This document shows positions 14,216-60,675 of a stretch of 60,675 nucleotides of DNA, piece after piece; the stretch's first letter is position 1, and every line of letters begins with the position of its first letter. Made by a program: the position numbers and the translations under genes. The DNA comes from Candidatus Uhrbacteria bacterium CG10_big_fil_rev_8_21_14_0_10_48_16 (GTDB lineage Bacteria > Patescibacteriota > Patescibacteriia > UBA9934 > GWF2-40-263): contig PFEU01000008.1 in NCBI GenBank assembly GCA_002793515.1, forward strand, positions 73,952 through 134,626, given 5' to 3'. The notes under the pieces are model-generated. The model was given only the letters and a program-made list of their open reading frames with translations, was not told where the DNA came from and searched no databases.

Positions 14216-14650
14216 GTCTCAGGATGGTCGGATGGCTACGTGCGCTTTGCGTGCGAGGAAAGTCCGAACACCCGTTTTATCGCAAGATAAGACGATAAAG
14301 AGAGTCGCTAACGGCGACCAAGGATACGTTTGAGGGTTCGCGGAATTGGAGAAATTCATTCCATGACTCCTGATTCAAACTTTAGGGAAAGTGCCACAGA
14401 GACAATACTAGCCTCGTGCAAACGGGGTGAAAGGTGAAAAGTGATGCTGAGGTTACTCGATCAGTCGGTTGAGTCAGCCACACATCTCGCTCCATGGCGA
14501 CATGGATGCGTGGTAAACCCTCTCTGGTGAAAGAGCAAATTTGGTAGCTCGATGGAGCCCTTCAGCAATGTTGGGACTAGATAGATTGCCATCTCCCTTT
14601 GCGAGTTCGTAGAGGTAGACAAAATTCGGCTTACAGACCAGCCCTGGGAC
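14216..14650 (+). ncRNA. rnpB: RNase P RNA
   Basis: GAGGAAAGTCC, AGTGCCACAGA, GGTAAACCC and ACAAAATTCGGCTTA conserved blocks; P1 helix GTCTCAGG/CCTGGGAC. Confidence 0.96.
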
Positions 14651-48798: not shown

Positions 48799-48826
48799 AA
48801 AAAACAGGGTCGTAACCCTGTTTTTT
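48799..48826. terminator. Bidirectional terminator
   Basis: AAAAAACAGGGT/ACCCTGTTTTTT between convergent genes. Confidence 0.75.
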
Positions 48827-48848
48827 GTATGATAAAAGGCGACGAAAG

Positions 48849-50219
48849 CTAGTTCGTCGCCTGAGCGGTCGCCACGTCGTGACGACGAGCGTAGTCGGCC
48901 TGTACGGCCTTATGAGCCTCGTAGATGGTGGGCCAGGTGTTCTTCTCGACTTGCGCACGAAACGCCGGGTCGAAGAGGACTCCATGGATCCACTCGTACT
49001 TCACGAGGTAGAGCCTCGTCTCGGTCGGAAGGGTCTTGCAGGACTCGTCCCGCCAAGAGTCGCCACACGCGGTGATCGCGCGCTTGACCGTCGCGATGTT
49101 GGCGTTGTAGCCAGCCGCGAAGACCAGCTGACGCTCCCAGGTATTGGCGAGGTAGAACTCCCGCTGGGAGTCCTCCCTGAACGTCCACCACTCGGCGTCC
49201 GTGTGCGCGATCATGGTCTTGATCGCGTTGTGGTGATCGACGCGACCCCACACGTCGTCCTTGGGAAGGTCGGCGCGGGGGTACTGCTCGCGGATCGCCT
49301 TGTAGGGCGTGCCCACGATCTGGCCGATGCCACGCGCGTCCGCCCAGCTCTTGGTGTAGGAGAAGCTCTTCCACCGGTTGAGCCCGAGCGTGACGAGGGC
49401 GCGATCGAGCATCTGCAAACGCTCGAGGTCCGCACCCTTCGCAAACCAGGTGTCCGACCACATCTGCTCGGTGAGGATGAGCGTAATGATGTGGTCGGGA
49501 GTGCCGAAGTCCGTGACGAGACGTCCCTCGATGAATTGACTGCGCACATCCTTGGCGCGCATTTCGTAGTACGCCGCGAGAACCGCGTCCCGCAAGTACA
49601 TCAGCCCTGCCTCTCGGAAGGCCGGTGTATCCAGACGCGTCGAGTAGGGCACGTAGACCGCGCCGTCGACGCCATCTGGTCCGTCACCGTGCACAGCGGT
49701 GCGCACCGCAACGGCCGTCCAACCCGGGGGCGAGGAGATGATGAACGGCGGGTTGACCCCACCGTCACACGCTCCGTCGCGCTCGCAGGTGACGCTGAAC
49801 CCGGAGGGGCTCGTGGACTCACCCCCGTAGACGTCGACGACCTGGAGCTTGCCTGTCTCGTTGACGGCAGCAACCAGGTAGTCACCGATACACCGCTTCC
49901 AGCCGAGCTGGAGCGCGTGGCTGGGGACGCACTGAGCCTGGTTCAGGCGCTTGCTCGTGAGGAGCTCCTTCCCCTCGGCGACCGCATCGACCAGGTTCTT
50001 GGGGACATCCAGGAGGCGTGCGCTCCCGGGAGGAACGTAGGCCACGTAGCCATCGACCTCGATCTGACGAGGCGGGGGCGGGAGCGGAATGCTCGGGATG
50101 GAGTGAGAAACCACGGGCTCCTCATCCAACCCCATCAGCTTGTGAACCACCTTCTGCCCCAGCATCACGATCGCGAGGATCGCCAGTACGAGGAGAAGAG
50201 GCTTGAAGTAACGACGCAT
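48849..50219 (-). CDS. Membrane-anchored protein with a C-terminal divergent lytic transglycosylase (SLT-like) domain; GC-rich
   Basis: LILTEQ (catalytic Glu position), DARGIGQI, AAGYNA, LPTETRLYLVK. Confidence 0.7.
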   Translation of the reverse strand: MRRYFKPLLLVLAILAIVMLGQKVVHKLMGLDEEPVVSHSIPSIPLPPPPRQIEVDGYVAYVPPGSARLLDVPKNLVDAVAEGKELLTSKRLNQAQCVPSHALQLGWKRCIGDYLVAAVNETGKLQVVDVYGGESTSPSGFSVTCERDGACDGGVNPPFIISSPPGWTAVAVRTAVHGDGPDGVDGAVYVPYSTRLDTPAFREAGLMYLRDAVLAAYYEMRAKDVRSQFIEGRLVTDFGTPDHIITLILTEQMWSDTWFAKGADLERLQMLDRALVTLGLNRWKSFSYTKSWADARGIGQIVGTPYKAIREQYPRADLPKDDVWGRVDHHNAIKTMIAHTDAEWWTFREDSQREFYLANTWERQLVFAAGYNANIATVKRAITACGDSWRDESCKTLPTETRLYLVKYEWIHGVLFDPAFRAQVEKNTWPTIYEAHKAVQADYARRHDVATAQATN

Positions 50220-50345
50220 GAGGAACCCTCCATGTCTTTAGGCACCATGCCTGCAGAACGAACAGAAATTACATGAAACAGGGGTTTTTGTCAATGGTTT
50301 AGAGACGAATACGTTCTGTTTTCCCCATAAAAGCCCCTTGTCGCA

Positions 50346-54163: not shown

Positions 54164-54460
54164 ATGCTGTTCAAATTTTTTAAACAAATTTTTCTTCCAA
54201 CTGAAGAGGTACTTGCAAAAACCACTGTTAGTTTAGCTTCATGGGACCAAATTAATCTCACAGGAAGGAACAAACAAAGAGTTAAAGTATTTCTCGAAAA
54301 TAAGTACGGGGGGAAAAATCTTGCCACCAAGATGCCAAGTCTAAAATTTGGGGTGGTTGAATTTTTACCTGACAACCCAGTGATCACAGTGCATGAAAAT
54401 GAAGAAAAGTGCGTAGTGGCCTTACACATCATCGATGGAACTATCCAAGAGATGCAATAG
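54164..54460 (+). CDS. Hypothetical protein, AT-rich
   Basis: 98-aa ORF in an operon-like position; no recognised motif. Confidence 0.5.
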   Translation: MLFKFFKQIFLPTEEVLAKTTVSLASWDQINLTGRNKQRVKVFLENKYGGKNLATKMPSLKFGVVEFLPDNPVITVHENEEKCVVALHIIDGTIQEMQ

Positions 54461-54465
54461 CAAAT

Positions 54466-55386
54466 ATGCTCGCCAAAATACTCGAAACCCCATTTGGGAT
54501 CAGTAAAGCCGATTGGAAGCTTCGATTCAATGATAAGGATTGGTTCCCTGATCATCCAACCCAAAACGCATCTGGATTTACTGACCAGGTCAACGAAAAA
54601 GATGTTCATGTTGTTGGTTATTTTGTGCCTGACGAATATGAAGATCGATTGACCCGAATAGTTATCTCCTTTGAAGGACTCGAAATGGATATTCAAAGAA
54701 AGTTTCTCTATCAACACTATTTGAAAACCCTTTCTGCAGAGTATGACAAACATACAGTAAAAGAAATGGTTGGTAGGATTGATGAACTTTGCATCTCAGA
54801 AATGACCATTTGGTTCAATGAACAGTCTGTTATCAGCCTCTGTCTCGTTCTTCATGAAAACAACGAATCAAACCCTGGTGTGTACCTTGCAATCGGTAGT
54901 AAGACGCAAGATCCTGTCTCAAAAACACTTCTCCACCTAGAACCCAAACAAGAAGACGATAAAAAAGCTATTGATCTTGTATTTTCATCAAAGAGATCGG
55001 CTCCGGCACGCTTCAGCCAAAATCATAGTCGCACACAGTCGTTTTGCATCGACTTCAACCAGCTCAAAAAGGAAGCAGACGAAATCATGGCAGCTCAGGC
55101 TTGGGGAGCAATCGGATACTATCTCACTGAAAAAACACCACTTGAACAGAACCAATTTTTGGCCGTATTGAAAATTGGAGAAGATATCATGATTGGAGCC
55201 TTCATAGCAACAAAGATAAACGAGGAAAAAACCAGTCTATTAAAACAAAAAATTATCCAAAAAAATACAAATCTTTTTTCAGACGATATCCCGAATCTTG
55301 GAAGAATCCTTGATGCAGATGAGGTGCAAAGATATCTCAGTCACTGCCAAGAATTCGGCATTGATACAGCAAGAAACAATCGTTAG
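54466..55386 (+). CDS. Hypothetical protein, AT-rich
   Basis: Long ORF; ATG 54466 five nt after the previous stop; no recognised motif. Confidence 0.7.
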   Translation: MLAKILETPFGISKADWKLRFNDKDWFPDHPTQNASGFTDQVNEKDVHVVGYFVPDEYEDRLTRIVISFEGLEMDIQRKFLYQHYLKTLSAEYDKHTVKEMVGRIDELCISEMTIWFNEQSVISLCLVLHENNESNPGVYLAIGSKTQDPVSKTLLHLEPKQEDDKKAIDLVFSSKRSAPARFSQNHSRTQSFCIDFNQLKKEADEIMAAQAWGAIGYYLTEKTPLEQNQFLAVLKIGEDIMIGAFIATKINEEKTSLLKQKIIQKNTNLFSDDIPNLGRILDADEVQRYLSHCQEFGIDTARNNR

Positions 55387-55484: not shown

Positions 55485-56423
55485 CTAGCCACTCGTTTTT
55501 ATCTTTTCCATCGCCGCATCAACAAACTGTTTATGCCAGGTTCTCATCTCTTGCTCCCTTTTATCGTTTCCATCCGCCCACTTGCGAATTTTAAAAGCAG
55601 CGCGTAGGGAAGCCATGAGGTCCCAGTATGGAAGTCCTCGATAGTCGAGGGTGGGATTTTGTGATTGATACTCTTGGGTGAATGCATCGACCATCTCAGG
55701 GCCCAACACCCACAGAAGTTCCATGCGTGCGTTTCCAACATCCTCAAGCGGCTCTCCAACGGCTGAATCGACCCAATCGATCACGGTTGGTCGGTCGCCG
55801 TTCCACATCACGTTTCCTGGCCAATAATCGCCATGGAGTAACACAGAGTCATTTCTGTATTGAAACGGCCAGTCTTGCTTAAGCACGTTACGAATCTCAC
55901 TCTCCCTGATCGAATCATCCATCTCCTTTTCACGAACAATAGACTCTCGATAGAGGTCGTCCGTGATTTGCGGAAGAAACGAAACATCATGCTTCGTTTT
56001 ATCAATCTGGTGAATCTTAGAAAGAATTCTTGCAAGATGCTTCACAAATACAAACGAATCTTCTGGTTGAAAGATCGTCTGCCCCTCAACCCAACCTACA
56101 ACCATGAATGGATCTGGCAGAGTTTTGAGCGATGTATCTAGAAAAACAGCCAGAGGCACTTGGATTCCCGAAGCTGTTAGCGTTTCTAACAAACGAAACT
56201 CTGTTGACACGACGTTTGGCAACAGCTTGAGTACTTCGAGCTTAGGGATACGCAAGGCAAAATCCATTTGTCCCTCTGATGAATGACATGAGAGGCGAAA
56301 AACGTGAGAAGAATACCCTCCCGTGAGTGGTATAGCTACTGGACTGGAATAGGATGGATCAATCGATGTGACAATTTTCTCTAACTGCTCAGTGGTTATT
56401 TCGTACATAAATCTTAGATCCAT
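55485..56423 (-). CDS. Aminoglycoside phosphotransferase/choline kinase-like phosphotransferase
   Basis: LTGGYSS, FALRIP, LLHGDYWPGNVMW, VIDW. Confidence 0.88.
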   Translation of the reverse strand: MDLRFMYEITTEQLEKIVTSIDPSYSSPVAIPLTGGYSSHVFRLSCHSSEGQMDFALRIPKLEVLKLLPNVVSTEFRLLETLTASGIQVPLAVFLDTSLKTLPDPFMVVGWVEGQTIFQPEDSFVFVKHLARILSKIHQIDKTKHDVSFLPQITDDLYRESIVREKEMDDSIRESEIRNVLKQDWPFQYRNDSVLLHGDYWPGNVMWNGDRPTVIDWVDSAVGEPLEDVGNARMELLWVLGPEMVDAFTQEYQSQNPTLDYRGLPYWDLMASLRAAFKIRKWADGNDKREQEMRTWHKQFVDAAMEKIKTSG

Positions 56424-56962
56424 CCCAAAATCGCATCGTGGTCAACGGCGGAGAGATCCGTGGTGTCCACAATTTTTGTTTTTCCGTCTAATGGGAGTGG
56501 GATGAATGTTTTGTTGAAAAAGCGCTCGTCGAATTCTTCCATTACCGAATCAAGATCATCGTTATGTCCCGGATGGCGCGCCGTTTTAGAACGCTTGATA
56601 AATCGCTCTCGTAAGACCGTCGGGTCAGCAGTTAACCAAATCTGTTTCAATTCCGCTCCATGCGTTTGTGCAAGCTCCTGAATCCAATCTGCGTCATCAA
56701 GCCAAAGAAATGTCGCATCTGCCACAACAGACTCTCCCCGATCCAGATGCATCCCAATGAGATCTCGAAAAACGGGAAAACTTAGTCGTCCAATCTCTTT
56801 AGACCACTCTCGATCTCGATACCCTCCTAAATCAAACATCGCCTCTTTGATCTCATCAAGGGCGATGCGCTGATATCCGGTTGCATCGGCAATGTGCTTG
56901 GATATAGTCGATTTTCCTGTTGCCAACGAACCTCCGACAATGATCAGCTTAGGTCGATTCAT
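56414..56962 (-). CDS. P-loop kinase (AAA_33-like)
   Basis: IVGGSLATGKST, DEIKE, VVADATF, RERFIKR. Confidence 0.82.
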   Translation of the reverse strand: MNRPKLIIVGGSLATGKSTISKHIADATGYQRIALDEIKEAMFDLGGYRDREWSKEIGRLSFPVFRDLIGMHLDRGESVVADATFLWLDDADWIQELAQTHGAELKQIWLTADPTVLRERFIKRSKTARHPGHNDDLDSVMEEFDERFFNKTFIPLPLDGKTKIVDTTDLSAVDHDAILGWI

Positions 56963-57707
56963 AACGCTTAGCCAGAAGTGCTTCGGCAATGTCTCGCTCG
57001 TCTTGGGTATTAATACCAATGACCTCCTCTGGCGCAACTTCTATGGAGGATAGTGTTTGTCCTTGTTCAACCGCCAGAGCAATCAAGTCCGTAAGGTAAT
57101 ACTCTTGTTGAGCGTTCTCATTCTTTAGAAAGGTGATATTTTTCCAAAGCCAATTTGCATCAAAACAGTACAAGCAGGGATTCACTTCTGTAATTTTCTT
57201 ATCTTCTTCTGTCGCGTCTTTATATTGAACATCGCGCACAATATGACCATCTTCTCCGCGCACGATTCTGCTCCAGTATAAAAATGCTTTTCGCCATCCT
57301 TCAAAATCTTGTAGGTGTGTTGTCATCATCGTAACGACGTTTCCTCTATCTTGATGTCGCTGAGTTAATTTCAACAATGACTCAGATGTGATAAAGGGAT
57401 GATCTCCATACAACACCATGACGGCATCCGCTGAGCCCACCGCCTCCTGCGTGACCGCAACCGCATGCCCCGTTCCTAACTGCTTCTCTTGGACCACATA
57501 GTGGCAACTCCCTCCAAACGTCTCACACAATGGCACACGCTCAGGACCAATCACAACAATAGGATCTGGATCCAGTCCCGTTGCCTGAATGGATTCGTAT
57601 AAGTACTGCAAAATTGGCTTCCCTCCAATCGGAGTAAGTGCCTTTGGGAGATCTTGCTTCATGCGCGAACCCTTGCCGGCCGCGAGAATGATAAATCGAA
57701 AAGTCAT
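56949..57707 (-). CDS. Nucleotidyltransferase, GlmU N-terminal domain only
   Basis: ILAAGKGSRM..DLPKAL, QEKQLGTGHAV, VLYGDHP, EVNPCLY, NENAQQEYYLTDLI; no hexapeptide acetyltransferase domain. Confidence 0.9.
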   Translation of the reverse strand: MTFRFIILAAGKGSRMKQDLPKALTPIGGKPILQYLYESIQATGLDPDPIVVIGPERVPLCETFGGSCHYVVQEKQLGTGHAVAVTQEAVGSADAVMVLYGDHPFITSESLLKLTQRHQDRGNVVTMMTTHLQDFEGWRKAFLYWSRIVRGEDGHIVRDVQYKDATEEDKKITEVNPCLYCFDANWLWKNITFLKNENAQQEYYLTDLIALAVEQGQTLSSIEVAPEEVIGINTQDERDIAEALLAKRYEST

Positions 57708-57787
57708 ATTGCGTCCCGTATGATAACAGTGGGAGCGGAATTTACAATATTGACAGACTCACATTCAAATGATCTGAAAAACCTCAT

Positions 57788-57898
57788 TTAAAGAAACAAG
57801 ACAGTCGCAATGATCCCCGTAAGAACCCCAAATGTATAAATAAAAACAGCTTTGAACAGCTTACAAAGGAAGCAATCTCCCTTTTTTTGTGTCTCCAT
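57788..57898 (-). CDS. Small peptide, 36 aa (METQKKGDCFLCKLFKAVFIYTFGVLTGIIATVLFL), CxxC plus hydrophobic helix
   Basis: Manual translation; ATG 10 nt after the nitroreductase stop; below the ORF-track cutoff. Confidence 0.5.
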   Translation of the reverse strand: METQKKGDCFLCKLFKAVFIYTFGVLTGIIATVLFL

Positions 57899-57908
57899 AC
57901 AACAAGCA

Positions 57909-58583
57909 TTAAAATCTCATCGCCGTAAAATTATCCATTCGAATACCCTTCTTTTTTGCAGTTTCCCACGTAGTTACTAAACGTTTTTCGATTTTCCTTG
58001 GTTTAGGTGAATAAGCTGGATATCCTATGGCAATTGATCCAACCATCTCCGCTTTTGTGTTCAGTGCCTTTTGAACAGCTTCTCGAGCGGGATAGGAATC
58101 AGCCATATAGACTGCTCCTAATCCAAACGACTTGGCTGCAAGTAATATATTCTGGACAGCAGCACCGATTCCAATAATTTCGCCCATATAGGTATACAGA
58201 CTTCTTCCACCGCGAGGATTTTTTAACACCTCATCTTTTCCACCAGATAACGGTCCCCTATTAAACACAATAATGTAAGCAAAAGCTGATCGAATCGTTG
58301 TTACGGACTCTGCAGTCGAATCGAATGCTCCTTCTGCCATCTTTCCTGTTCGAGCATCTGTTGGTCCTCTAACCAGTCTTGATTTCGCATTTTCCTCTAT
58401 CCAAGCAGCAATTTGATTCTTTGTTTTCCCTTTTGTTACAACAAAAAACCAAGGGTTACTATTTTTTGATGAGGGAGCCTGAAGACCACATTCGAGAATA
58501 GTTTTTAACACATTTGCAGGGATACGTTTCTTCGTAAACTCCCTAATACTCCGACGTTGTTGTATAGCTTGGATGATATCCAT
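57909..58583 (-). CDS. Nitroreductase-family flavoprotein; AT-rich
   Basis: IQQRRSIREF, APSSKNSNPWFF, GAAVQNILLAAKSFGLG, IAIGYP. Confidence 0.9.
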   Translation of the reverse strand: MDIIQAIQQRRSIREFTKKRIPANVLKTILECGLQAPSSKNSNPWFFVVTKGKTKNQIAAWIEENAKSRLVRGPTDARTGKMAEGAFDSTAESVTTIRSAFAYIIVFNRGPLSGGKDEVLKNPRGGRSLYTYMGEIIGIGAAVQNILLAAKSFGLGAVYMADSYPAREAVQKALNTKAEMVGSIAIGYPAYSPKPRKIEKRLVTTWETAKKKGIRMDNFTAMRF

Positions 58584-58586
58584 ACA

Positions 58587-59954
58587 CTACCCATTTTGTT
58601 GAGATCTATTAGCAGCTTGTTTTAGTCGCTGTCGTGATTTCTCCTGCTTAGCCAGATCAAGAAACCCTGTGCCAAGATACTTTTTTCCAACAACTTCAAG
58701 TCCCGTAGCAATTCGTGCTTGCAAAGTATATTTTGGTGTCTGTTGCATCATTTTAGACCACTTCCTTTTCTCTAAACCACTCGCTTGATCAAACAAATCA
58801 ATAATTTCCTGCCATTGTTCCTCAGTATTTGAGAACTTCATGATCAATTCTTTAAGTTTTTTCTCTTCTTTGCTTTTTACATCCACAACTCCAGCCTCAT
58901 CTGTAGCCACAGAAAATCCAAAAAAATGAGTTTTTGAACAAATTTCAGGACCTAATTTTTTCATAATTTCAGCGACCGACCAAATAGACGGCAACCGATA
59001 CATGCCTTGTTCAGCAAGTTCACCAACGAGTGTTGCATCTCTCACATTCATCGTCATAACAATCATTGTGTCACACAAACCATTATCCCATGCAAAACGA
59101 ACTGTCTTTTCCGCATCTTCAACTGATTCTCTCTCTGTTAAAAATGGGGGCTTAAATAATGTATGTGCAGTCGCTTTTATTCCGTATTGATGAAGTAAAT
59201 CTACCCGTTCTTTATAGGGAACGGCAACACGTTTTGCCATGGCCCCTTCTAAAATTAGCGGATCAGAACTTTCAATCCCATAACCCACATCAATCCTAAG
59301 ATCCTTTCCGATTTCGATTCCTTCATTTTCAAAAAACTGCTTCAAATCATCTAAAACCTCTGGGGTGACGTGCTTTAAACGGGATTCCGTCGTCCACTCA
59401 ACTCCTTCAGGAAATTGTTTTGATTTAACCATTTCAGCAATTCTCCGATAAACATCAAGACGAGTCTCTTTAGGAATTTCTCTTTCATCAAACATTGACC
59501 CGATAGCTGTCAGATTCACCAGTGCCCAATCCCTTCCTGCATTCTCTTTTAAAATAAGTTCGAAGGCACTCGATATTTGACCCGGAAGAGATTCCATAAC
59601 TTCCATTCGCTTCGCACCACTTGTACCATAATCACAAAATGAACAATCACCACGATGCGCATCCATGCAACCAACCGTAGAGACGGAAATAAGAGAGTTT
59701 TCACGTCCAGGTTGTCCTAACACTGGCAGCGAAAAAGACACAAAATCTGTTCCTGAAATAATAGCCCTTCTTTCTTTTCGAATCTTTTTCATCACCCGGT
59801 TCCAAATAGGGTGAGCCACTTCTAAGACATCCTCTCTTGCCACATCCTTAAGTTCACTAGGGACATTAAAATTATGATCAGGATCATTTAACATTTCAGC
59901 TACATACTCTCGATCTGGTTGGGGTCCTGGTTTATCAATTCCCATATAATTCAC
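58587..59954 (-). CDS. Radical SAM protein resembling the archaeosine-synthesis RaSEA (TIGR01210-like) family; AT-rich
   Basis: STVGCMDAHRGDCSFCDY (CX7CX2C), GSMFDEREIP, ESRL, VGYGIES, LFKPPFLTERESVED; start may be ATG 59945. Confidence 0.8.
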   Translation of the reverse strand: MNYMGIDKPGPQPDREYVAEMLNDPDHNFNVPSELKDVAREDVLEVAHPIWNRVMKKIRKERRAIISGTDFVSFSLPVLGQPGRENSLISVSTVGCMDAHRGDCSFCDYGTSGAKRMEVMESLPGQISSAFELILKENAGRDWALVNLTAIGSMFDEREIPKETRLDVYRRIAEMVKSKQFPEGVEWTTESRLKHVTPEVLDDLKQFFENEGIEIGKDLRIDVGYGIESSDPLILEGAMAKRVAVPYKERVDLLHQYGIKATAHTLFKPPFLTERESVEDAEKTVRFAWDNGLCDTMIVMTMNVRDATLVGELAEQGMYRLPSIWSVAEIMKKLGPEICSKTHFFGFSVATDEAGVVDVKSKEEKKLKELIMKFSNTEEQWQEIIDLFDQASGLEKRKWSKMMQQTPKYTLQARIATGLEVVGKKYLGTGFLDLAKQEKSRQRLKQAANRSQQNG

Positions 59955-60021
59955 TTAAAAAAATAATCTGCTTAAAGAAGTATATCAAATATAAAACCTG
60001 TGTAACAAAAAAGAACCCTTT

Positions 60022-60133
60022 GTCCTGGCGCCCACCTACTCTCGCGCAATCGCACTACCATCGGCCCAAGGAAGCTTAACGGCCGTGTTCGGGATGGGAA
60101 CGGGTGTGGCCTTCCTGGAAGTGGCACCAAGAC
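60022..60133 (-). rRNA. rrf: 5S rRNA
   Basis: CACACCCGTTCCCATCCCGAACACGG..GTTAAG, GCCGATGGTAGT, GAGAGTAGG; enclosed by AAGAACCCTTTGTC/GACAAAGGGTTCTT. Confidence 0.97.
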
Positions 60134-60348
60134 AAAGGGTTCTTTAATTTTACTAAATAAGGGTAGCGGCAAGAATCAATTACTCGTTCACGTATTTCAC
60201 GTGATGAAAGTTTGATTCGGTTTTCAAAATGGAATGAGATGCGCCGCTCTGGAGCCATGAAAGATTTTGAGACGACCAAATGGTCGTTGAAAAATTTTCA
60301 TGGCGAAGAGCAAGCAGATCGTCCATTTTGGAAATCGAATGCATGAGT

Positions 60349-60675
<327 letters not shown>

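What the first reader, a model, noticed from the sequence alone, without database searches (positions are those of the whole stretch)
57909..59954. Archaeal-type RaSEA-like radical SAM gene with a nitroreductase, AT-rich, behind the rRNA operon
Seen: non-canonical CX7CX2C and KPPFLTE motifs, a 3-nt gap to the flavoprotein gene, ~30% GC in a sampled segment. Known: RaSEA works with ArcS and archaeal TGT to make archaeosine in tRNA; none of these partners is in the window. Inference: a horizontally acquired two-enzyme module doing new C-N cleavage chemistry on a nucleoside, cofactor or peptide, with the flavoprotein as reductant.
Basis: partly seen in the sequence, partly recalled or inferred. 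Interest (0 to 1): 0.6.

Follow-up and report, generated by a model that had tools for sequence, protein, structure and literature searches.

The report
Inserted radical SAM–nitroreductase gene pair
A tiny groundwater bacterium has picked up a two-gene cassette, a radical SAM enzyme related to the archaeosine and queuine C-N cleaving enzymes plus a flavin nitroreductase; the same pair recurs in other ultra-small bacteria, is not an archaeosine pathway, and its substrate is unknown.

Summary
Both genes are real and intact: a radical SAM (rSAM) ORF at 58587-59954(-) and a nitroreductase (NTR) at 57909-58583(-), 3 nt apart, just behind the 5S rRNA gene. The CX7CX2C and KPPFLTE motifs are present, but they are signatures of the whole family, not oddities. 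GC is 40%, not 30%.

The rSAM scores 128 bits against TIGR01210 (RaSEA), below the 212-bit cut-off. It lacks the C-terminal four-Cys motif found in 45 of 62 relatives. It falls in a separate clade with Parcubacteria and Saccharibacteria members. The 96%-complete, roughly 1 Mb genome gave no match for ArcS, archaeal TGT or QueA/C/D/F/G/H, only a bacterial Tgt. This is therefore not archaeosine synthesis.

The pairing with the NTR is conserved: three further loci show it directly and four more are inferred from matching contig lengths. Two fusion proteins join a distant rSAM branch to an NTR domain.

Relatives of the same genus and family have 5S followed directly by the next gene, so about 2.2 kb (57779-60006) is a strain-specific insertion. 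Its GC3 is in the lowest 1.3% of the genome.

The parts
58587..59954 (-). Radical SAM gene, 455 aa (GTG start; alternative ATG at 59945 gives 452 aa). TIGR01210-like, RaSEA/QueL-related, and lacking the C-terminal four-Cys motif.
59634..59669 (-). Codons for C96-x7-C104-x2-C107, the [4Fe-4S]/SAM cluster motif.
   Evidence: Read from the sequence. Invariant in 62 of 62 aligned relatives.
59133..59153 (-). Codons for K268PPFLTE274, a family signature shared with archaeal RaSEA-like proteins.
   Evidence: This was the pattern used; of 336 matching stretches, 329 encode relatives.
57909..58583 (-). Nitroreductase-family FMN flavoprotein gene, 224 aa, pI 10.15, starting 3 nt after the rSAM stop codon.
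   Evidence: PF00881 E 2.9e-26. Best solved relative is 3gfa, E 1.4e-20. Orthologues sit beside rSAM orthologues in L088, L090/L093 and L091. pI.
57779..60006 (.). Strain-specific inserted segment of about 2.23 kb that carries only these two genes.
   Evidence: Homology to the same-genus locus L185 stops at 60007 and resumes at 57778; L185 has 194 nt there. In L183, L184 and L185 the 5S gene is followed directly by the NTP-transferase gene. Both junctions are bridged by contigs of several runs.
60023..60131 (-). 5S rRNA gene, the upstream boundary of the insertion.
   Evidence: Rfam RF00001, 82.4 bits.
56949..57707 (-). GlmU-N-terminal-like NTP-transferase gene, the conserved downstream boundary. 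It has normal GC (46%) and is not part of the module.
   Evidence: Found in 19 of 21 relatives. GC.

Best explanation
A 2.2-kb horizontally acquired cassette sits between the 5S rRNA gene and a conserved NTP-transferase gene in a Patescibacteria (CPR) genome of about 1 Mb. It encodes a co-inherited enzyme pair.

(1) The first enzyme is a radical SAM enzyme from a distinct clade of the TIGR01210-like (RaSEA/QueL) superfamily whose named members are CPR bacteria. It keeps the single CX7CX2C [4Fe-4S]/SAM site and has lost the C-terminal four-Cys motif.

(2) The second is a basic nitroreductase-family FMN protein.

Most likely mechanism:
- The reduced cluster cleaves SAM to give a 5'-deoxyadenosyl radical.
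- The radical abstracts a hydrogen from the carbon next to a nitrogen in an N-alkyl substituent.
- The resulting radical is oxidised to an iminium and the C-N bond breaks (oxidative N-dealkylation). This is what the characterised relatives do: RaSEA converts preQ0-Lys to G+, QueL converts queuine to preQ1, and the more distant MnmL/YhcC converts cmnm5s2U to nm5s2U.
- The flavoprotein acts as the dedicated electron-transfer partner. It either primes the cluster from NAD(P)H or carries out a coupled two-electron step on the product or by-product.

Shown: gene integrity, family placement, loss of the four-Cys motif, conserved pairing and fusions, the insertion, and no detectable archaeosine or queuosine biosynthesis genes.

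Inferred: the C-N lyase chemistry, the direction of electron flow, and the substrate. My best guess for the substrate is a salvaged N-substituted nucleobase or nucleoside of the 7-deazaguanine kind; I give that guess about 0.2.
For: Family:
- TIGR01210 is the only NCBIfam hit: E 3.3e-37, residues 88-410 against model positions 17-310 of 313.
- All 73 relatives scanned hit TIGR01210, and 6 of the 73 reach its cut-off.
- A profile of 13 clade members hits queuine lyase 6p78 by sequence, E 5.9e-6.

Chemistry of the relatives, from papers:
- RaSEA converts preQ0-Lys15 to G+ in complex with ArcS (PMC11298593, passages read).
- QueL makes preQ1 from queuine (PMC7694415, passages read).
- YhcC/MnmL demodifies cmnm5s2U to nm5s2U (preprint 10.64898/2026.05.18.725915, abstract read).

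Pairing:
- NTR orthologues lie next to rSAM orthologues in L088 (rSAM 53%, NTR 66% identity), L090=L093 (37%, 42%) and L091 (32%, 39%).
- P0002/P0158, P0003/P0155, P0009/P0182 and P0008-cluster/P0180 share source and contig length, so co-location is inferred for them.
- These pairs are spread over a 20-row clade with SH-aLRT support of 99.
- Pairwise identities of the two proteins correlate, r 0.88 over 28 non-independent pairs.
- In a different major branch the rSAM is fused to an NTR domain. In P0152 that domain is 35% identical to the window's NTR, E 7e-25. P0153 is a second fusion.
- An NTR HMM run over 5808 ORFs of 170 loci found strong hits only beside this clade.

Insertion.

Composition.

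The rSAM is acidic (pI 5.65) and the NTR basic (pI 10.15).
Against: - No experiment and no substrate-level evidence exists. No conserved third gene points to a substrate. Relatives without an NTR within the flank held sit next to unrelated genes: NUDIX in L089, PanD plus a PP-loop ATPase in L008, an NRPS in L094.
- Foldseek ranks the Elp3 rSAM domain first (E 2e-6) and QueL only 17th. The VIA-align lead of QueL over generic rSAM folds is only about 1.3 Z units.
- Sequence similarity to QueL covers only the N-terminal half.
- The genome already has a flavodoxin, so a dedicated reductant is not obviously needed.
- Tgt is present in 19 of 21 relatives while the rSAM is present in 1 of 21. Tgt therefore works without the pair.
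- With no QueA/QueG/QueH match, a queuine-to-preQ1 step could not rebuild queuosine.
- The NTR family has many more close members (94 at E <= 1e-10) than the rSAM clade. An acidic Acidobacteria-like NTR group has no known rSAM link.
Confidence: 0.5

Rival explanations
1. It is a true RaSEA: the beta subunit of archaeosine synthase, making G+ (or dG+) from a preQ0-lysine adduct.
For: TIGR01210 is the only curated family hit. The KPPFLTE and CX7CX2C signatures are shared with archaeal family members. One relative, P0013, carries the source name 'archaeosine synthase beta-subunit'.
Against: - It scores 128.4 bits against a 212.15 cut-off.
- In a 96%-complete genome there is no match for DUF5591/ArcS, QueC, QueD or QueF.
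- The only TGT is the bacterial Q34 type: TIGR00430 463.7 bits against 306.75, while arcTGT TIGR00432 scores 134 against 350.
- The four-Cys motif present in the RaSEA scorers is missing.
- An AU test rejects a clade with the four RaSEA scorers, p 0.0006, although that group was named after the tree had been seen.
Confidence: 0.02
2. It is a QueL-type salvage enzyme. It trims queuine, queuosine or another N-substituted 7-deazaguanine taken from the environment or a host to a base that the bacterial Tgt can insert. The NTR reduces the cluster or removes the reactive carbonyl by-product.
For: - QueL is the only solved protein hit by the clade profile and the best VIA-align structure.
- The genome has Tgt but no match for any de novo or downstream queuosine gene, so it must live on salvaged bases.
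- It is a CPR genome of about 1 Mb.
Against: - Tgt is conserved in 19 of 21 relatives, and the other 20 relatives searched have no rSAM match.
- There is no QueA/QueG/QueH match to rebuild Q from preQ1, and no YhhQ-type transporter match.
- QueL is about 230-250 aa and lacks the N- and C-terminal domains of this protein.
- No que gene lies next to any of the related loci examined.
Confidence: 0.17
3. It is an RNA-modifying or demodifying enzyme acting on tRNA or rRNA, in the manner of MnmL or Elp3. The strongly basic NTR would provide RNA binding, much as ArcS does for RaSEA.
For: - The characterised relatives RaSEA, MnmL/YhcC and Elp3 act on tRNA.
- The NTR has pI 10.15, and 6 of 7 co-located NTRs are basic.
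- The gene lies directly behind the rRNA operon.
Against: - The window protein gives no TIGR01212 hit at E 0.01.
- The rSAM itself is acidic, pI 5.65.
- A translation-related function would not be expected in only 1 of 21 close relatives.
- The position behind the rRNA operon is a variable insertion spot that holds unrelated cargo in relatives.
Confidence: 0.1
4. It is a tailoring or detoxifying pair for a small molecule or peptide (natural product, cofactor, xenobiotic) unrelated to nucleic acids.
For: - One clade member sits in an NRPS/PPTase context, L094.
- Superfamily members are fused to ATCase/OTCase, a PaaK-like ligase and an ABC ATPase.
- Nitroreductases commonly act on small redox-active compounds; this point is established knowledge, recalled.
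Against: No precursor peptide, transporter or further biosynthetic gene travels with the pair in the window, L088, L090 or L091. CPR genomes have little secondary metabolism; this point is recalled.
Confidence: 0.13
5. It is an anti-phage defence or other conflict cassette, for example one making or destroying a modified nucleotide.
For: - It sits in a variable spot whose content differs between relatives.
- It has the same low-GC signature as this genome's restriction-modification, Shedu and IS200 genes.
Against: - PADLOC gives no credible hit. For the rSAM the only match is AbiEii at E 9.5e-4 with no stretch passing; for the NTR there is none.
- Only one distant relative was found in viral contigs, at 23% identity.
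- No neighbouring defence genes are present.
Confidence: 0.07

Closest known systems
RaSEA (TIGR01210), the radical SAM subunit of archaeosine synthase that works in complex with ArcS
   Same: It is the best and only curated family hit. The two share the CX7-9CX2C cluster motif, the KPPFLTE strand and the overall domain order, including a C-terminal helical domain. The expected chemistry is C-N cleavage next to an amidine or amine nitrogen (PMC11298593, passages read).
   Different: The score is below the cut-off, 128 against 212 bits. The protein forms a separate clade. The four-Cys motif is lost. No match for ArcS, arcTGT or preQ0 synthesis genes was found in the genome. The partner is a nitroreductase rather than ArcS.
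Queuine lyase QueL (PDB 6p78)
   Different: QueL is about 230-250 aa and has neither the roughly 85-aa N-terminal nor the roughly 100-aa C-terminal domain. The QueK/QueA/QueG context is missing here. No NTR partner is recalled for QueL; that point was not checked here.
MnmL/YtqA/YhcC (TIGR01212), the tRNA cmnm5s2U demodifying radical SAM enzyme
   Same: It is a neighbouring family: 17 of the 73 relatives scanned also hit TIGR01212 weakly. It performs an N-dealkylation on a nucleoside side chain (abstract read).
   Different: The window protein gives no TIGR01212 hit at E 0.01. MnmL binds tRNA on its own and pairs with the methylase MnmM, not with a flavoprotein.
Elp3 radical SAM domain
   Different: There is no KAT/GNAT domain, identity is 14-17%, and Elp3 performs C-C bond formation on U34.
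Radical SAM enzymes with a built-in flavoprotein electron donor, such as eukaryotic TYW1 with its flavodoxin domain (recalled, not tested here)
   Same: An FMN protein is genetically or physically coupled to a radical SAM enzyme, which fits dedicated reduction of the cluster.
   Different: Here the flavoprotein has the nitroreductase fold (PF00881), is usually a separate polypeptide, and its role is untested.
Nitroreductase superfamily members FbiB C-terminal domain, BluB and the putative nitroreductase 3gfa
   Same: PF00881 matches over the full length. The best curated hits are the FbiB C-terminal domain and BluB, 51-54 bits. Against 3gfa the E-value is 1.4e-20.
   Different: All curated scores are far below their cut-offs (54 against 249.55 for FbiB, 51 against 150 for BluB). 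The protein belongs to a subfamily with an APSSKNSNPWF signature that has no assigned function.

Membership tests
RaSEA (TIGR01210 equivalog) | Score at or above the curated cut-off of 212.15 bits | tested here: not met
   128.4 bits. The same result came from the whole-genome search, 129 bits and not over the cut-off.
RaSEA (TIGR01210 equivalog) | Co-occurrence with ArcS (DUF5591/PUA), archaeal TGT and preQ0 synthesis genes | tested here: not met
   No match for DUF5591, QueC or QueD in a 96%-complete genome. The single TGT is the bacterial TIGR00430 type; arcTGT scores 134 against 350.
RaSEA (TIGR01210 equivalog) | Radical SAM cluster motif CX7-9CX2C and the KPPFLTE signature | tested here: met
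   C96, C104 and C107 are invariant in 62 of 62 rows. KPPFLTE is at residues 268-274.
RaSEA (TIGR01210 equivalog) | C-terminal CxxC...CxC four-Cys motif, present in the members that pass the cut-off | tested here: not met
   The window has K360, E363, G393 and E395 at those columns. 45 of 62 aligned relatives, including P0069, P0044 and P0042, have all four Cys. That this motif is defining for RaSEA is my inference from the alignment, not a published criterion.
RaSEA (TIGR01210 equivalog) | Phylogenetic placement among cut-off-passing RaSEA sequences | tested here: not met
   The protein sits in a separate, starred 20-row clade. An AU test rejects union with four RaSEA scorers, p 0.0006, on a quick LG+G4 tree with the group chosen after the tree had been seen.
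Queuine lyase QueL | Sequence and structural similarity to 6p78 | tested here: inconclusive
Queuine lyase QueL | Genomic context of queuosine salvage and rebuilding (QueK, transporter, QueA, QueG/H) | tested here: not met
   No match for QueA, QueG, QueH or Vut_1/YhhQ. QueK and QueT were not searched.
MnmL/YtqA (TIGR01212) | Match to TIGR01212 | tested here: not met
   No hit at E 0.01 for the window protein.
Radical SAM superfamily | Three-Cys cluster motif, partial TIM-barrel fold, SAM-binding GGE-like motif | tested here: met
Nitroreductase family (PF00881) | Full-length match above the gathering score | tested here: met
   93.1 bits against 23.5, residues 7-188 on model positions 1-167 of 167.
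FbiB C-terminal domain / BluB | Score above the curated cut-offs | tested here: not met
   54.4 against 249.55 (TIGR03553) and 51.1 against 150 (TIGR02476).
Known anti-phage defence systems (PADLOC-DB 2.0) | Match of either protein to a defence model | tested here: not met
   For the rSAM there is only AbiEii at E 9.5e-4 with no passing stretch. For the NTR there is none.

The most novel reading that the evidence does not exclude
The pair is a new kind of flavin-coupled radical SAM N-dealkylase that works without ArcS. It would let an ultra-small, biosynthesis-poor CPR bacterium strip the side chain from a scavenged modified nucleobase or nucleoside, such as a queuine or archaeosine-type 7-deazaguanine released by hosts or neighbours, and reuse the core. 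That would be a previously unknown salvage route, moving between CPR lineages as a two-gene cassette.
Probability: 0.15. Interest if true: 0.7.

Novelty: new variant of a known kind. Interest (0 to 1): 0.5.

Why it matters
Only RaSEA in the TIGR01210-like superfamily has an assigned function; QueL is related but distant. All 73 relatives scanned hit TIGR01210, but only 6 reach the RaSEA cut-off. Annotation pipelines will therefore tend to label genes like this one 'archaeosine synthase beta subunit', which is wrong here.

A recurrent, sometimes fused, coupling of this rSAM fold to a nitroreductase flavoprotein is uncharacterised as far as my searches reach. There were 0 papers with 'TIGR01210'. 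There were 0 with nitroreductase + radical SAM + Patescibacteria. Of 3 papers with nitroreductase + radical SAM + deazaguanine, 2 were listed, seen as search listing only, and neither is on this subject.

If the chemistry is N-dealkylation with a dedicated flavin partner, it extends a small group of radical C-N lyases and may reveal a salvage trick of CPR bacteria.

The locus also gives a clean example of cassette gain in a CPR genome at the 3' end of the rRNA operon.

Tried and rejected
- **Complex prediction (rSAM + NTR dimer).** The queue was full every time and the job never ran, so there is no result on binding.
- **The look-up of encoding contigs.** Closed, so not called. Co-location of P0002, P0003, P0008 and P0009 with NTRs therefore rests on matching source and contig length, not on reading the DNA.
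- **RNA evidence.** No RNA holder was listed among 24 runs, so this says nothing about expression.
- **NTR fusions.** A search of longer proteins with the NTR found none at E <= 1e-8. The tool itself calls this weak evidence.
- **Signs of the insertion mechanism.** No direct repeats flank the insert. There is no second copy of the 5S 3' end in the window; the only other match is the inverted 5S-flanking stem. No intrinsic terminator was found between 5S and the rSAM gene. No integrase or transposase lies in the segment.
- **Viral contigs.** One distant relative at 23% identity, not followed up.
- **Other low-GC genes of the genome.** I scanned them for a functional partner such as a transporter or que/dpd genes. 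Several are restriction-modification, Shedu and IS200 genes; the rest are unrelated or unassigned, and none is linkable.
- **Downstream operon (NTP-transferase, AAA_33 kinase, APH kinase).** I considered it as part of the module and rejected that. Its GC is normal, the NTP-transferase is conserved in 19 of 21 relatives without the pair, and AAA_33 and APH have no homologues next to related pairs.
- **L090 NTP-transferase.** A homologue lies 4.5 kb from the rSAM there. I take this as background synteny.
- **X5 contig.** One contig of run X5 joins 57566 to 60010, skipping the insert, but only 22 letters lie on its short side. It is too weak to count as an empty-site allele.
- **Paper supplements.** They were closed. 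Those of the YhcC preprint and of the ArcS paper might list family members or neighbourhoods relevant here.
Full report
**What is in the sequence.**

On the minus strand the window ends with the 3' part of a bacterial 23S rRNA gene (60347-60675) and a 5S rRNA gene (60023-60131). About 70 nt further on a 455-aa ORF begins at a GTG at 59954. An ATG at 59945 would give 452 aa, the form held in the protein collection as P0001. Its stop codon is followed after 3 nt by a 224-aa ORF at 57909-58583.

The first protein contains C96-x7-C104-x2-C107 and K268PPFLTE274. It has no Pfam family at E 0.01, and PF04055 scores only E 0.33. Its single NCBIfam hit is TIGR01210 (RaSEA): E 3.3e-37, 128.4 bits against a curated cut-off of 212.15. 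The second protein is a full-length nitroreductase (NTR) family member, PF00881 at 93 bits.

GC is 40.0% and 40.7%. The two 'non-canonical' motifs are family signatures. The three Cys are invariant in 62 of 62 aligned relatives. KPPFLTE[KRE]E matched 336 stretches in the reference genomes, and 329 of them encode relatives. Of the best 80, 69 are archaeal and 11 bacterial.

**The organism and the archaeosine question.**

The window is part of a 987,517-bp assembly in 29 contigs, 96% complete, with GC 47.7%. A genome that the tool places in the same phylum is titled Candidatus Saccharibacteria, so this is a Patescibacteria/CPR bacterium.

Whole-genome family searches gave these results:

| Family searched | Result |
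|---|---|
| TGT | one gene |
| DUF5591 (ArcS) | none |
| QueC | none |
| QueD | none |
| QueF | none |
| QueA | none |
| QueG | none |
| QueH | none |
| YhhQ-type transporter | none |
| Flavodoxin | one gene |
| PF04055 (other rSAM genes) | two |

The TGT is the bacterial Q34 enzyme: TIGR00430 scores 463.7 bits against 306.75, while archaeal TIGR00432 scores 134 against 350. Each negative search worked in control genomes. With 96% completeness, absence is likely but not proven. An archaeosine pathway does not explain the gene.

**Where the radical SAM protein belongs.**

An exhaustive HMMER scan of 1.84 billion representative proteins found 921 relatives at E <= 1e-3 but only 23 at E <= 1e-30. 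The word-based search found 6, including the protein itself. All 73 relatives scanned hit TIGR01210, but only 6 reach its cut-off.

I built a tree of 74 rows (IQ-TREE quick search, LG+G4, SH-aLRT support only). The window protein sits in a 5-row clade (support 100) with P0002, P0003, P0004 and L088, at 51-59% identity. That clade lies inside a 20-row clade (support 99). The known members of the 20-row clade come from a Parcubacteria MAG (P0009), a Saccharibacteria MAG (L009, with P0007/L089 and L092 from metagenome contigs) and an 'uncultured bacterium' with CPR-like gene content (L008).

Four sequences that pass the RaSEA cut-off group elsewhere in the tree. An AU test rejects forcing them together with the window's clade (delta lnL 125, p 0.0006). 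The caveat is that I named that group after seeing the tree.

A C-terminal CxxC...CxC motif is complete in 45 of 62 aligned relatives, including the RaSEA scorers. At all four positions it is replaced by non-Cys residues in the window protein, in P0002-P0004 and in seven others.

**The pairing with the nitroreductase.**

Among the related metagenome loci, NTR orthologues lie beside the rSAM gene in three:

| Locus | rSAM identity | NTR identity | Arrangement |
|---|---|---|---|
| L088 | 53% | 66% | adjacent |
| L090 (= L093) | 37% | 42% | one 139-aa ORF between |
| L091 | 32% | 39% | overlapping |

For four more lineages, the rSAM and a close NTR share source and contig length, so I infer co-location without having read the DNA:

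| rSAM | NTR | Shared contig length (bp) |
|---|---|---|
| P0002 | P0158 | 6444 |
| P0003 | P0155 | 15285 |
| P0009 | P0182 | 35128 |
| P0008 cluster | P0180 | 10266 |

These pairs are spread over the 20-row clade. Identities of the two proteins rise and fall together, r 0.88 over 28 pairs that are not independent.

An HMM of these NTRs, run over 5808 ORFs of all 170 loci then held, gave strong hits only at these places. It also gave two weak hits in L108 and L117, each thousands of bases from the rSAM match.

Two clade members lack an NTR within the flank held. In L089/L092 a NUDIX gene follows the rSAM. In L008 a panD gene and a PP-loop ATPase precede it.

Independently, in the other major branch of the tree, the rSAM domain is fused to an NTR domain:
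- P0152 has the rSAM domain, pentapeptide repeats and an NTR domain. The NTR part is 35% identical to the window's NTR, E 7e-25.
- P0153 has rSAM and NTR domains, with 19% identity to the window's NTR, E 5e-9.

I regard the functional coupling as well supported.

The window's rSAM is acidic (pI 5.65) and its NTR very basic (pI 10.15). Six of the seven co-located NTRs are basic, while an Acidobacteria-like NTR group with no known rSAM link is acidic. This fits complex formation or nucleic-acid binding but proves neither. The complex prediction could not be run because the queue was full at every attempt.

**Horizontal acquisition.**

The next gene downstream is a GlmU-N-terminal-like NTP-transferase at 56949-57707. 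It is conserved in 19 of 21 close relatives.

- In a same-genus genome (L185) and two same-family genomes (L183, L184), the 5S gene is followed directly, after 170-280 nt, by this transferase.
- Two other relatives carry different cargo at the same spot. L182 has an ArsB/CitMHS transporter plus an unknown ORF. L186 has three ORFs without a Pfam family.
- Nucleotide homology between the window and L185 stops at 60007 and resumes at 57778. About 2.23 kb here replaces 194 nt there.

The rSAM was found in 1 of 21 relatives and in 5 of 401 sampled genomes of the phylum at E <= 1e-10. Only one of those is close, at 39% identity. A close NTR was found in 1 of 401.

GC3 of the two genes (29.6% and 29.3%) ranks at 1.2-1.3% of 607 ORFs of 600 nt or more. 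Several of the other lowest-GC genes in this genome are restriction-modification, Shedu and IS200 genes.

Contigs from several groundwater and aquifer runs bridge both junctions, so the arrangement is not an assembly chimera. I found no flanking repeats, integrase or transposase, and the mechanism of insertion is unknown.

**How it most likely works.**

The characterised members around this protein all remove an N-linked group from a modified nucleobase by radical chemistry:
- RaSEA turns preQ0-Lys into archaeosine in complex with ArcS (PMC11298593, passages read).
- Queuine lyase gives preQ1 from queuine (PMC7694415, passages read). That review's wording of the chemistry is loose. The C-N cleavage description is recalled from Yuan et al. 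2019, which I did not read here.
- MnmL/YhcC demodifies cmnm5s2U to nm5s2U (preprint abstract read).

I therefore propose the same type of reaction: SAM cleavage at the CX7CX2C cluster, hydrogen abstraction next to nitrogen, and C-N scission.

The loss of the four-Cys motif and the gain of an NTR partner suggest that the flavoprotein has taken over an electron-transfer task. It may prime the cluster from NAD(P)H, as flavodoxin domains do in some radical SAM enzymes (recalled). Alternatively it may accept or deliver two electrons on the product or on a reactive carbonyl by-product. All of this is inference.

A substrate of the 7-deazaguanine kind is attractive because the genome keeps Tgt yet cannot make any precursor. 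However, Tgt is present in 19 of 21 relatives that manage without the pair. No match for QueA or QueG/H, the genes needed to rebuild queuosine from preQ1, was found. No que gene accompanies any related locus. I give that substrate guess about 0.2.

**Comparison with what is known, and verdict.**

The gene works most like RaSEA or QueL but is a member of neither. It fails the RaSEA cut-off, context, motif and tree tests, and it lacks the QueL context. I file it as a new variant of a known kind: an uncharacterised TIGR01210-like radical SAM clade, centred on CPR bacteria, that is coupled to a nitroreductase flavoprotein and moves as a two-gene cassette.

The GC figure and the special status of the motifs were overstated.

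My searches found nothing in print on this pairing. The library does not hold most subscription journals, and supplements were closed. Interest is moderate, 0.5.

Noticed in passing
window 57779-60006; L182, L183, L184, L185, L186: The gap between the 5S rRNA gene and the NTP-transferase gene is a variable spot in this family. It is empty in three relatives. One relative holds an ArsB/CitMHS transporter plus an unknown ORF there, and another holds three unknown ORFs.
   Followed up: yes
L186:455-520 and L186:3470-3535: In the same-genus genome G405, about 30 nt of the 5S 3' end and its downstream T-run are repeated directly about 3 kb further on. After the repeat the sequence resembles the empty site of L185. 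This looks like att-type duplication from site-specific integration into the 5S 3' end. The window has no such repeat.
   Followed up: partly
G000:C15:94891-96105 (L169:6892-8106): Tgt is the only queuosine-pathway gene found in the genome and is kept in 19 of 21 relatives. Where a solved bacterial TGT reads FDEC, this Tgt reads FDDV. As I recall, that Cys-to-Val change is one of the differences seen in queuine-inserting eukaryotic enzymes. This may hint at direct queuine use; it was not tested.
   Followed up: partly
window 54409-55386 (+): A 325-aa ORF has no Pfam, NCBIfam or PADLOC match, and its GC is 40% (rank 2.5%). It may be another foreign gene close to the cassette.
   Followed up: partly
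window 55485-57707 (-): Three overlapping genes form an apparent operon with normal GC: a GlmU-N-terminal-like NTP-transferase, an AAA_33 kinase and an APH-family kinase. The kinase plus nucleotidyltransferase combination recalls AmgK/MurU-type amino-sugar salvage. That resemblance is recalled and was not tested.
   Followed up: no
P0077, P0109, P0100, P0106 (relatives): TIGR01210-like radical SAM domains are fused to aspartate/ornithine carbamoyltransferase, to a PaaK/F390-synthetase-like adenylating ligase and to an ABC ATPase. In L008 a panD gene and a PP-loop ATPase precede the rSAM. Several of these partners make C-N bonds. This would fit a general scheme in which an amino acid is attached and then trimmed by a radical, as in ArcS/RaSEA.
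   Followed up: partly
P0017 and P0018: Two paralogues of the clade (sister rows, support 100) each list a longest contig of 12,506 bp, which suggests a tandem or nearby duplication.
   Followed up: no
G000 contigs C15:20982-24106, C25:4164-7533, C16:3963-4643: Several of the lowest-GC genes of the genome are a C5 DNA methylase with an NgoFVII-like endonuclease and a UDG-family gene, a Shedu SduA-like gene with an AAA_13 ATPase and a type I specificity subunit, and an IS200-like transposase.
   Followed up: partly
L090:7658-8836: The rSAM orthologue in L090 has GC 52% in a locus of 38%, while its NTR has 37%. It is compositionally odd in the opposite direction from the window's copy. I have no explanation.
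   Followed up: no
window 14220-14650 (+): The RNase P RNA (bacterial class A) spans 431 nt against a 367-position model, so it carries insertions.
   Followed up: no
window 48825-50276: A stretch with GC 64.8% lies in a 47.7% GC genome. It has long open frames on both strands, 483 aa (+) and 456 aa (-). A second GC-rich stretch lies at about 9-14 kb, GC 55-64%. Neither was examined.
   Followed up: no
window 57566/60010, run X5: One low-depth contig joins these two places, skipping 2443 nt. This may be a co-occurring relative without the cassette, but only 22 letters lie on the short side.
   Followed up: no
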